From NCBI GenBank assembly GCA_052327205.1, contig CM126229.1, positions 10,788,001 to 10,852,000 of the forward strand: a DNA stretch of 64,000 bases, read 5' to 3'. Positions 54,701 through 57,700 of the stretch are shown piece by piece. Source of the DNA: Somniosus microcephalus (taxonomy: Eukaryota). Below the pieces are notes generated by a model. It made no database searches. It was not told the origin of the DNA and saw only the letters and a program-made list of their open reading frames with translations. The position numbers and the translations under genes are program-made. Positions within the stretch are counted from its first letter, which is position 1; every line of letters begins with the position of its first letter.

Positions 54701-57700
54701 TTCTAAAGGGCAAGTAGAAATGTGGCCCCTTCGCTTGGCCTAAGTAAATTTAATCTTCATCCAAGAAGACTAAGTAACCATTCCTCGGGTGTTTTCCAGT
54801 GTTGTCTGCCTGCCAGTGTGGCTGAGATCAGCTATCTGCTCACTGGTGGTTTGAACTGGTACAAATCACCCATGGAATCCTTGACTTTGTTCATCCCATG
54901 TTGATGCATGGAGATCCTATGTTTTCCTCTTCTGAATGTTCTGTTTGACTGGCTGCGATTTATTCTACCCTTATTTCTCCCCTCACCGAACCCCCCAAAG
55001 ATAAACCAATCAGGATTAGATAATTATATTACAGTGCAAGTGAACTCATTAAAAATTTGCTGTCAAGTCAGTTTTTTCAATGCATGTGGTTTCTGGTTAC
55101 CCCCCTTAGTACCTGAATCCAGTTGAGAGGCCTGAGACACCAGTATTCAGGCCCCACGTTTAGTTAAGGCCGCTGTCTTTTTTAAATAGAAATATCGCTG
55201 GGTTTCAAAATATTGCTCTGTTCTCCTGGCTTGGGTTCCAATTTGCTGACCGAGGGGAGGCAGACTATCTGTACCCAAGTGCTTGCCAGTCTGGGGTTAC
55301 AATTTGCCTTGCATGCTTGCGTTTCTGTTCCTTTTCTGTCTCCATGGGTCACCGTTAAATGGGATGCTGATTAGGCATGTGAGTTGATAATCACAGCCAC
55401 AACTCTGCATTCTAAAGAAGGTCGAACATGCTGTTACATGAACATTACCAGAATACTGATGCTGCGTTCCAAAGCTTCTGTCAACTGATGACTATCGCAT
55501 GTCTGAACACACAAGTCCTTACTAGGAATGGGATCCTTGATCAAACCACATGCCACTTGTCCCAAGTATTTGATCCAAGATTTTGTTTGTAAATTGTCAA
55601 ATTTCAGAACAAAATCTCCACCCATACTGTGTCTAAAAATGATGTGGAGATGCCGGTGTTGGACTGGGGTGGACAAATGTAGGAAGTCACACAACACCAG
55701 GTTATAGTCCAACAGCTTTATTTGAAATCACAAGCTTTCGGAGCGCTGCTCCTTCGTCAGGTGAAGTGGAGAGAAGCATACAGGCACAGCATATATAGTC
55801 AGAGAAAACTGCCGGATGATTACAGGTAATCTTTCTAACTGCCCTTTATCACACCTCGGCAGAGAGATAATCACAGCAATCAAAGGTGTGAATGGTGTCC
55901 AAACAGGTCAGTCAGGAAAACATTACATCAAAGAACAATGAGGTGGGGTCACAAGGGGTCAAATGTTGCAGATGCTGGGGTCTGTATGAAAAACAGGAAA
56001 AAAAAACAAAAATCTTTGCTGGAAATCAAAGTTTTTCATACAGACCCCAGCATCTGCAACATTTGACCCCTTGTGACCCCACCTCATTGTTCTTTGATGT
56101 AATGTTTTCCTGACTGACCTGTTTGGACACCATTCACACCTTTGATTGCTGTGATTATCTCTCTGCCGAGGTGTGATAAAGGGCAGTTAGAAAGATTACC
56201 TGTAATCATCCGGCAGTTTTCTCTGACTATATATGCTGTGCCTGTATGCTTCTCTCCACTTCACCTGACGAAGGAGCAGCGCTCCGAAAGCTTGTGATTT
56301 CAAATAAAGCTGTTGCACTATAACCTGGTGTTGTGTGACTTCCTACATGTGTCTAAAAATGTTACTGTGAGACATGCAACCAGTCGATGCTGAGAGAGAA
56401 TTTGGAATATGACTACAAGCGGGTGCTGAGCTGCGATTATGGGAACTGTATTCCAATTGCTACTGTATTACAGGGCCTTTACGAGACACCAGCAGCAGTT
56501 GACTGCCATGAAGGTGATACAGAGGAACTGCGCTGCTTACCTGAAACTGCGCAACTGGCAGTGGTGGAGACTGTTCACAAAGGCAAGTACGATGTCCACC
56601 CCTCAGGAAAAAAATTATGGCTTGGCTGAACAGGAGCTTGCAAGTTTTTCCCCTTTCTCCTAGATATTAAAGCATATAGTAACTTGTAAATGTCTACAAC
56701 CAGTGGATATTCTATTTTTAATATAAACAGAAGATGCTGGAAATACTCAACAGGTCAGGCAGCATCTGTGGAGAGAAACCGAGTTAAATCTGTGGAGAGA
56801 AACCGAGTTAATATTTTGGCTCCATGATTTTTCGTCAAAACTGGAAAAAATTAGAGATGTAACAGTTTTTAAGCAGGTACAGAGGCAGGGAAAGGGCGTG
56901 GGGAGGAAAGAACAGGAAAGGTCTGTGATGGGATGGAAGGCAGGAGAGATTAAATGACAAAAGTGATGGTGCATGGCAAAAGGGGGTGGTAATGGGACAA
57001 GTGAAGAAACTAAAGATGGATCTAGAGGAACTGTAAATGGCAACAGTAGAGTCATTACCAGCACCTGCTGTATGAAAAAATTGGGAACAGTGGTTATGAT
57101 CTGAAATTGTTGAACTGAGTCCGGAAGGTTGTATTGTGCCTAATAATTGGAACAGTGTAAGAGGCTGAGAACAGAGGGGTGGTAGTGGGACGGAGAATTA
57201 AAATGGCAAGCGACCAGAAGCTCAGGCTCACGCTTGCGGACTGAACGGAGGTGTTCAGCAGAGCGATCACCCAACCTGCATTTGGTCTCCCCAATGTAGA
57301 GGAGACCGCATCGTGAGCAGTGAATACAGTATACTAAATTGTAAGTACAAGTAAATCGCTGTTTCACCTGGAAGGAGTGTTTGGGGACCTGGACGGTGGG
57401 TAGGGAGGAGGTGAAAGGGCAGGTGTTGCATCTCCTGCATTTGTATGGGAAGGAGAGCAGGTTTTGGGGGTGATGGAAGAGTGGATTAGGGTGTTGCGGA
57501 GGGAATGGTCCCTTCAGAATGCTGAAAGGGGAGGGGAAGATGTGTTTGGTGGCATTGCGTTGGAGATGGTGGGGGATGATCAGTTGAATGTTGAGGCTGG
57601 TGGGGTGGAAAGTGAGGACAAGGGGAACCCTATCGTGGTTCTGGGAGGGAGGAGAAGGGATGAGGGCAGAAGTGCAGGAAATGGGACGGACGCGGTCAAG

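What the first reader, a model, noticed from the sequence alone, without database searches (positions are those of the whole stretch)
55628..56361. Self-masking ribozyme hairpin: 318-bp near-perfect inverted Penelope repeat with a hammerhead in each arm, in a MYH9 intron
Seen: two 318-bp arms (one mismatch found), a 36-nt loop and a 13-14-bp TSD, so this is one very recent insertion. Each arm has an intact hammerhead core (CUGACGA / stem II / GAAA / AAGCUU), and the hairpin ends about 125 nt before exon ~20. Established: Penelope-like elements carry minimal type-I hammerheads in their pLTRs, thought to work as dimers, and can insert with inverted pLTRs. Inference: whichever strand is transcribed, the antisense copy is made first and the ribozyme second, so the ribozyme is born next to its full complement. 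This would shield the essential MYH9 pre-mRNA from cleavage while creating a long dsRNA (ADAR, Dicer/endo-siRNA substrate) able to silence the family in trans. There is no protein-coding content between the TSDs.
Basis: partly seen in the sequence, partly recalled or inferred. Interest (0 to 1): 0.8.

Follow-up and report, generated by a model that had tools for sequence, protein, structure and literature searches.

The report
Young head-to-head Penelope insertion in MYH9
A young hairpin-shaped scrap of a Penelope-like jumping gene sits in an intron of the MYH9 myosin gene; this head-to-head shape is the commonest way the family inserts, and its small ribozyme likely cannot cut without a partner, so the 'self-masking' is likely a by-product and the finding is ordinary.

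Summary
Observation confirmed: 318-bp arms with one mismatch, 36-nt loop, 14-bp duplication, a minimal hammerhead in each arm, 126 nt before an MYH9 exon. The parent is a Neptune-type element. Independent contigs cross both outer junctions; two relatives lack the insertion.

The shape is the family's default: 70 of 98 sampled copies have it, at the same rate with an intact ribozyme core (40/56) or without (30/42). The ribozyme lacks helix III, such motifs did not cleave as monomers in print, and no partner lies in 264 kb covering the gene. The duplex is predicted to bury the core in read-through RNA, but little needs hiding; 12 of 12 reads splice normally across the intron. siRNA from inverted Penelope copies is already published; editing and small RNAs were untestable.

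New detail: 27 of 98 copies stop at a TATA-initiator 7 nt before the core, and either arm can be the longer, which suggests two priming events. Both arms here carry that putative promoter, whose transcripts would escape masking. The scan found this kind of insertion in other genomes before. Ordinary.

The parts
55628..55641 (+). Left target-site duplication (14 bp; last 3 bases also fit the element end, so 11-14 bp)
   Evidence: contigs of two relatives stop matching exactly at 55641
55642..55676 (-). One-sided 35-nt Penelope 'tail', the element's 3' end; in the parent it runs into the ORF start codon
   Evidence: 64 of 70 inverted arms end 29-45 nt short of the tail end
55677..55994 (-). Left arm: tailed copy of the pLTR (3' untranslated end of a Neptune-type element)
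55728..55764 (-). Minimal type I hammerhead, antisense to MYH9; core starts 55760, predicted cut after 55732
55767..55797 (-). Putative TATA box (from 55797) and initiator A (55767), pointing antisense into MYH9
   Evidence: mirror of 56228-56258; inferred
55995..56030 (-). 36-nt loop: 34 bases of ordinary element sequence continuing the left arm, plus 2 junction bases
56031..56347 (+). Right arm: inverted, tail-less copy of the pLTR, sense to MYH9
56228..56258 (+). Putative TATA box (56228-56234) and initiator A (56258), 30 nt apart, pointing at the next exon
   Evidence: sequence; 27 of 98 family copies reach no further than a 16-nt window around this A; promoter activity not tested
56261..56297 (+). 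Minimal type I hammerhead on the MYH9 sense strand: stem I 56261-64/56294-97, core 56265-71, extra A 56272, stem II 56273-77/56281-85, GAAA 56286-89, palindromic AGCU in place of helix III, predicted cut after 56293
56348..56361 (+). Right target-site duplication
   Evidence: contigs of runs X1 and X2 cross this junction
56474..56582 (+). Downstream MYH9 exon (exon 20 by recalled human numbering; end approximate)
   Evidence: 12 of 12 RNA reads leaving the upstream exon at 54632 continue into it

Best explanation
This is a young, non-coding, 5'-truncated insertion of a Penelope-like retroelement in an MYH9 intron, in the head-to-head form that most copies of its family show, and its ribozyme is likely inert with or without the hairpin. 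It was likely made by two priming events: the element's endonuclease nicks both target strands 11-14 bp apart, one nick primes reverse transcription at the tail end, the other about 35 nt upstream, both on RNA from one source copy, and the two cDNA ends are joined. This necessarily puts the antisense arm first for any read-through transcript, so the duplex would bury the hammerhead, but as a by-product. The hammerhead has no helix III and would need a second copy (and perhaps the element's protein) to cut; none is in the gene. The hairpin is probably an ADAR substrate like any long intronic inverted repeat and is spliced out. Shown: anatomy, family, frequency, empty site in relatives, normal exon joining. 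Predicted: masking. Inferred: two primings, inactivity, promoter, editing.
For: Anatomy matches the published pattern of inverted 5'-truncated copy plus one-sided tail (PMC8557442; PMC3846280). Parent ORF with RT, DKG, CX4CxxC linker and C-terminal GIY-YIG. 70 of 98 copies inverted, 30 of 98 with intact cores in both arms; rate independent of an intact core, 40/56 vs 30/42. 19 of 70 core-bearing insertions have an unmasked core. 8360 exact copies of the 32-nt ribozyme core. Single minimal motif showed no cleavage and dimers little (PMC4209133); Anolis motif cleaved only with protein, and both strands were extended from two start sites (PMC11167929). One sense motif in 264 kb. 92 of 98 insertions span the cut site, so they were copied from uncut RNA. 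Tail-less arm reaches further 5' in 32 of 70, less far in 20. Arms share rare variants 15 times more often than cross-locus pairs. 12 of 12 reads splice normally.
Against: Cleavage was not assayed; the family keeps the core nearly invariant, so it probably works somewhere in the life cycle. The census could not assign copies to introns or to gene strand, so selection confined to sense introns is not excluded. RNA depth on the exons was low (3-23) and zero on unique intron, so rare cleavage, skipping or editing would be missed. At this locus the tail-less arm is the shorter one, which a fold-back copy could also give. Shared variants between arms could come from later gene conversion. Pfam found only a sub-threshold RT match and no GIY-YIG in the parent.
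Confidence: 0.85

Rival explanations
1. Functional self-masking: the ribozyme can cut MYH9 pre-mRNA in vivo, helped by protein or a partner in trans, and the insertion survived only because the upstream antisense arm buries it; the duplex also feeds silencing of the family.
For: Full insertion folds at -678.5 kcal/mol with stems I and II at probability 0.0; growing transcripts are fully arm-paired. The only intact sense motif in 264 kb is the masked one. The arm alone does fold stems I and II (0.66-0.74). Protein-assisted cleavage exists in Anolis. siRNAs map to inverted Penelope regions in transgenic flies. Retrozymes are somewhat depleted from Xenopus introns.
Against: Inversion rate does not depend on an intact core; about 70% of insertions would be masked anyway, so one masked copy is expected. 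No helix III and no partner. The active dimer fold scores -20.7 against -23.2 for two monomers and -30.5 for another dimer (tertiary contacts not modelled). With over a thousand similar palindromes this locus adds little to silencing, and the fly siRNAs did not silence Penelope efficiently.
Confidence: 0.07
2. The insertion matters as a pair of outward-facing promoters: the right arm would start a transcript 216 nt before the next MYH9 exon, the left arm an antisense transcript; these RNAs would carry an unmasked hammerhead.
For: TATA and initiator spaced 30 nt; 27 of 98 copies end in a 16-nt window at the initiator, modes at its A and the next base, hazard ten times the background. Penelope pLTR promoters can drive downstream exons (PMC2377424); a TATA-Inr pair was noted in rotifer pLTRs.
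Against: No RNA depth on unique sequence beside the element's arms in the intron and no listed pile-up of read starts at 56258. Transcripts from 56258 that run into the exon are predicted to misfold the hammerhead (stem II 0.01-0.02). The pile-up could be a reverse-transcriptase stop at the hairpin, and part of it comes from a 4-nt self-complementary word.
Confidence: 0.05
3. Same element and same inert outcome, but the second arm was made by fold-back self-priming of one cDNA rather than by a second priming event (the reading of PMC3846280).
For: Here the tail-less arm starts 33 nt inside the tailed one; arms share a variant seen in 1 of 55 copies; breakpoints of the two arms are correlated, rho 0.64.
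Against: In 32 of 70 copies the tail-less arm reaches further than the tailed arm, by up to 1.7 kb, and so cannot be its copy, while the tail cannot be copied from the tail-less arm. The four bases closing the loop here do not pair.
Confidence: 0.2
4. Fold-back assembly artefact.
For: Near-perfect palindromes can arise in library preparation; X1 may be the assembly's own source; no listed contig piece crosses the inner junction (lists were cut).
Against: Flanks are unique and collinear with two exons; one-sided tail and duplication cannot come from fold-back; X1 crosses the left junction, X1 and X2 the right, with opposite element orientation; relatives stop at the duplication; 70 of 98 copies share the form.
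Confidence: 0.01

Closest known systems
Complex insertions of endonuclease-positive Penelope-like elements (PMC8557442 Fig. 2 text; PMC3846280)
   Same: Inverted 5'-truncated copy adjoining the 5' end, head-to-head, 30-40-bp tail on one end only, variable target duplication, TATA-Inr in the pLTR.
   Different: Only the 3' 390 nt are present, no ORF; vertebrate Neptune-type parent whose ORF starts at the tail end; duplication 11-14 bp (12 in 18 of 31 scored).
Minimal type I hammerheads of metazoan Penelope-like elements (PMC4209133)
   Same: Short stem I, extra base before stem II, G10.1-C11.1 pair, palindrome in place of helix III; pairs 100-700 bp apart on opposite strands were already reported there.
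   Different: This sequence was not assayed; stem II is 5 bp rather than 7-8.
Poseidon of Anolis carolinensis (PMC11167929)
   Same: Tail between two reverse-transcription start sites; both target strands cut and extended; hammerhead near the pLTR-ORF junction.
   Different: Different clade (no zinc-finger linker in Poseidon); there the ORF starts inside the hammerhead, here about 90 nt after it. The passages read do not derive inverted insertions from the two start sites.
Inverted Penelope copies as siRNA sources in Drosophila (PMC3681739, PMC3136932)
   Same: Long inverted repeats of the element able to form double-stranded RNA.
   Different: Shown in flies, where silencing was inefficient; no small-RNA data here.
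Non-LTR retrozymes (bioRxiv 10.64898/2026.07.22.740005) and domesticated intronic hammerheads of amniotes such as RECK (PMC6155905)
   Same: Non-coding, type I hammerhead, pLTR-related or intronic.
   Different: Retrozymes are head-to-tail tandems; the amniote motifs are old and conserved. This is head-to-head, young and absent from close relatives.

Membership tests
Endonuclease-positive Penelope-like element | Parent ORF with RT followed by C-terminal GIY-YIG endonuclease | tested here: met
   L078 ORF of about 890 codons with one stop: DKG, YIDD, GIY-YIG-type motifs read by eye; Pfam only RVT_1 E=0.0011, below cut-off, no GIY-YIG hit
Endonuclease-positive Penelope-like element | pLTR formed by partial tandem | tested here: met
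   L078 has the 3' 413 nt repeated before the ORF
Endonuclease-positive Penelope-like element | 30-40-bp tail at one end only | tested here: met
   55642-55676; 68 of 70 inverted arms lack it
Endonuclease-positive Penelope-like element | Inverted 5'-truncated copy adjoining the 5' end | tested here: met
   this locus; 70 of 98 copies
Endonuclease-positive Penelope-like element | CCHH motif with two cysteines inside GIY-YIG | tested here: met
   read from the L071 and L078 translations against the definition
Neptune (or Nematis) clade | CX2-5CxxC linker between RT and endonuclease | tested here: met
   CX4CxxC in L071 and L078; excludes Penelope/Poseidon
Neptune (or Nematis) clade | Placement in an RT tree | not tested
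   no reference RTs fetched; Neptune rather than Nematis rests on recalled vertebrate distribution
Minimal type I hammerhead | Core boxes, stems I and II, extra base before G10.1, palindrome at helix III | tested here: met
Minimal type I hammerhead | Self-cleavage as a dimer | not testable with these tools
   needs an assay; energy of the active dimer is not favourable in a nearest-neighbour model
Canonical monomer-active hammerhead | Stable helix III in one molecule | tested here: not met
   one A-U pair around 2 nt; no Rfam hammerhead hit at E<=10
Non-LTR retrozyme | At least two head-to-tail units each with a hammerhead | tested here: not met
   one motif per strand
MITE / foldback DNA transposon | Symmetric terminal inverted repeats of fixed extent, no RT parent | tested here: not met
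   ends asymmetric, arm lengths vary from copy to copy, parent encodes RT

The most novel reading that the evidence does not exclude
The head-to-head insertion habit is a family-wide safety catch: the hammerhead does cut host pre-mRNA in vivo when helped by the element's protein, unmasked sense copies are purged from introns, and double priming from both nicked strands delivers most copies pre-masked, letting the family colonise essential genes while each copy also plants two outward-facing promoters that release unmasked ribozyme RNA.
Probability: 0.07. Interest if true: 0.6.

Novelty: new member of a known kind. Interest (0 to 1): 0.14.

Why it matters
As a locus it matters little: one of probably more than a thousand such palindromes (14 pairs per 100 exact hits, 8360 hits; extrapolated), in a gene that still splices normally. 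The family-level by-catch is more useful. How Penelope-like elements make their inverted ends is an open question in the papers read; here either arm can be the longer and both come from one source copy, which favours two primings over fold-back, and a quarter of copies stop at a TATA-initiator just before the ribozyme, which would map the transcription start from DNA alone. Searches found no paper making these two points, but the library lacks most subscription journals. If functional masking were true it would give these weak ribozymes a demonstrable cost to the host and explain the inverted form by selection.

Tried and rejected
Rfam scan: no hammerhead family at E<=10; 20 hairpin-type matches, all below gathering score, ignored. 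Sequencing-run search: no RNA holder listed; two raw RNA runs came as additions. A-to-I editing: unique intron had zero depth in X21 and X22, and A>G counts over the arms come from many copies and are similar in DNA contigs (49 and 56 places in RNA, 43 in DNA), so no verdict. Ribozyme cut leaving a trace in insertion ends: 5 ends at positions 3044-3052 against 2.6 expected, p=0.12, not significant; no listed pile-up of read ends at 56293, weak. Empty allele in X1 and X2: none seen, contigs run unbroken across the junctions at single-copy depth; contigs drop rare variants. Inner junction 56030/56031: no crossing piece among those listed, lists were cut; no run was laid across both arms at once, so that junction stays unconfirmed by reads. 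Sense-versus-antisense intron count: not done, no gene annotation. Neighbour genes for synteny: none of my motif probes hit in 73 kb upstream or 70 kb downstream, much of the latter satellite. One paper on dimer cleavage, sought by a recalled id, is not held. No earlier notes on this genome.

Full report
Observation. The repeat is real. Positions 55677-55994 mirror 56031-56348 with one mismatch, around a 36-nt loop, inside a 14-bp direct repeat at 55628 and 56348. The left end has 35 further bases, 55642-55676, with no mirror. A descriptor scan of the window finds two minimal hammerheads, one per strand. Rfam has no hammerhead match at E<=10. The host gene is on the + strand; three exons match myosin-9 ahead of myosin-11 and -10, and its coding exons run from about -26.5 kb to +93.6 kb in window coordinates. 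The next exon starts at 56474. The genome is 6.45 Gb; that it is probably a shark rests on recalled resemblance of its repeats and was not tested.

What it is. The left unit matches other copies at 97-99% over positions 3-389 of 389, loop included (40 of 2220 candidates scored). [quoted passage not shown] By the definitions in PMC8557442 (passages) the linker excludes Penelope/Poseidon and means Neptune or Nematis. Pfam gave only a sub-threshold RT match. Our insertion spans element positions about 2748-3136 and 2781-3097, all after the stop codon. The exact 32-nt ribozyme core occurs 8360 times and the exact 30-nt tail 1557 times.

Not an artefact; young. An X1 contig crosses the left junction at depth 33.1 with no difference (X1 may be the assembly's source). 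X1 and X2 contigs cross the right junction at depths 34.6 and 15.7, against 35 and 18.1 for nearby unique contigs, unbroken, which suggests both samples are homozygous for it. Contigs from organisms C (X4) and D (X5) match the flank and stop exactly at 55641, with 354 and about 24 further letters that do not follow the element: the empty site, though those letters were not printed. One mismatch in 317 bp gives 0.16% per arm (95% range 0.004-0.88%) against 1.3% per lineage to organism C. All 29 other copies with at least 100 nt of overlap differ more between arms, 0.7-6.2%. So it is among the youngest copies, yet shared by several samples; gene conversion between arms could make it look younger.

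How common is the shape. I fetched the first 100 of the 1557 tail matches (93 on C1, 7 on C2) and dropped 2 segmental duplicates. Of 98, 70 have an inverted copy of the 3' end adjoining on the 5' side, 25 are single and 3 have another inverted piece; none has one on the 3' side within 500 nt; 68 of the 70 inverted arms lack the tail; 30 of 98 have an intact core in both arms. Among the first 100 exact core hits, 14 neighbouring pairs within 4 kb are divergent, 0 convergent, 1 tandem. The sample is limited to copies with an exact tail. An older insertion of a second family in the same gene, 50346-50564, has the same layout and a 16-bp duplication. In print: inverted 5'-truncated copy plus one-sided tail is typical (PMC8557442, passages), head-to-head is the most frequent form (PMC3846280, passages), and minimal hammerheads 100-700 bp apart on opposite strands were reported (PMC4209133, parts 1-2 of 4).

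Does masking happen, and is it needed. On read-through the duplex is predicted to win completely: -678.5 kcal/mol, stems I and II at probability 0.0, every snapshot arm-paired, whereas the arm alone forms them at 0.66-0.74. But the motif has one A-U pair in place of helix III. A single minimal motif showed no cleavage and dimers little; the Anolis motif cleaved only with protein and was not needed for insertion (PMC11167929, parts 1-2 of 4). Only one such motif lies on the + strand of 264 kb covering the gene's coding span (the first non-coding exon was not located). The active dimer scores -20.7, two monomers -23.2, another dimer -30.5. Selection for masking predicts more inversions where there is a core to hide; the rates are 40 of 56 with an intact core in the tailed arm and 30 of 42 without, p=1.0, and 19 of 70 core-bearing insertions are unmasked. 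This test ignores genic position and strand, so intron-specific selection remains open; retrozymes are modestly depleted from Xenopus introns (bioRxiv 10.64898/2026.07.22.740005, part 1 of 5 and passages; its supplements were not seen). In X21, of which about a quarter was read, 12 of 12 reads leaving the upstream exon continue into the next exon; in X22, 7 of 7 molecules end at that exon's start. Depth is low.

Double-stranded RNA. Editing is plausible but untestable: unique intron has no reads. siRNA from inverted Penelope copies is described in flies, where it did not silence efficiently (PMC3681739 and PMC3136932, passages). A search for hammerhead masking by an inverted repeat in introns found nothing relevant among 4 papers (listing only).

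How the arms arose (inferred). The tail-less arm reaches further 5' in 32 of 70 copies, less far in 20, within 5 nt in 18. An arm cannot be a fold-back copy of a shorter one, and the tail cannot be copied from a tail-less arm, so most cases need two primings; this fits both strands being extended and two start sites bounding the tail in vitro. In 36 loci the arms share non-majority bases 4 times, and rare ones 15 times, more often than cross-locus pairs; ours share one base seen in 1 of 55 copies. Both arms thus come from one source copy, or were homogenised later. Against: breakpoints are correlated (rho 0.64), and this locus alone is compatible with fold-back, though its loop-closing bases do not pair.

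A putative promoter. The furthest 5' reach of 27 of 98 insertions falls at element positions 2998-3013, ten times the background hazard, with modes at 3008-3009; 3008 is an A in an initiator-like word exactly 30 nt after a TATA box and 7 nt before the core. I read this as the transcription start, with internal priming at the upstream tail giving 130-nt stubs. Rivals are a stop at the hairpin and a short self-complementary word that draws some junctions to 3009. Both arms here contain the motif (56228-56258 and its mirror), so transcripts from it would not be masked; those running into the exon are predicted to misfold the core. Putative TATA-Inr pairs and internal promoters in pLTRs are in print (passages). 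92 of 98 insertions span the cut site; ends at the cut site are not significantly enriched (p=0.12).

Verdict. A real, young, ordinary member of a described kind; the scan's earlier notes on five loci in other genomes reached the same class (unchecked notes, read after my analysis). Interest 0.14; functional masking 7%.

Noticed in passing
window 50346-50564: Older head-to-head insertion of a second, related Penelope-like family in the same gene, with an exact 16-bp duplication, a decayed hammerhead in the left arm only and a one-sided extension on the right.
   Followed up: partly
window 56720-56811: Short antisense fragment of that second family 140 nt after the exon, ending in a 24-bp tandem duplication, without a hammerhead core.
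   Followed up: partly
L078, element positions about 2675-2780: The parent's 3' untranslated end begins with a decayed hammerhead-like motif and a stretch 80% like the second family's end, upstream of the intact hammerhead and tail: possibly a chimera of two pLTRs.
   Followed up: no
L031-L090, L111-L150: 27 of 98 insertions stop at a TATA-initiator just before the hammerhead; likely the transcription start recorded in DNA.
   Followed up: partly
L084: The junction between the two arms holds a 24-nt piece of the tail-ORF boundary, a sign of template jumping.
   Followed up: no
L034/L035, L056/L057, L016/L017: Pairs of copies that appear to lie in segmental duplications.
   Followed up: no
window 56400: Runs X1 and X2 both read G where the assembly has A, at full depth: allele difference or assembly error.
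   Followed up: no
window 10166-10269 / 11395-11496 and 4867-4911 / 5052-5096: Two other inverted pairs (95% and 98% alike) in earlier MYH9 introns.
   Followed up: no
window 36001-38200: GC-rich (62%) block of imperfect internal repeats inside the gene.
   Followed up: no
L105-L110: A satellite array of more than 50 kb begins about 17 kb after the last MYH9 exon.
   Followed up: no
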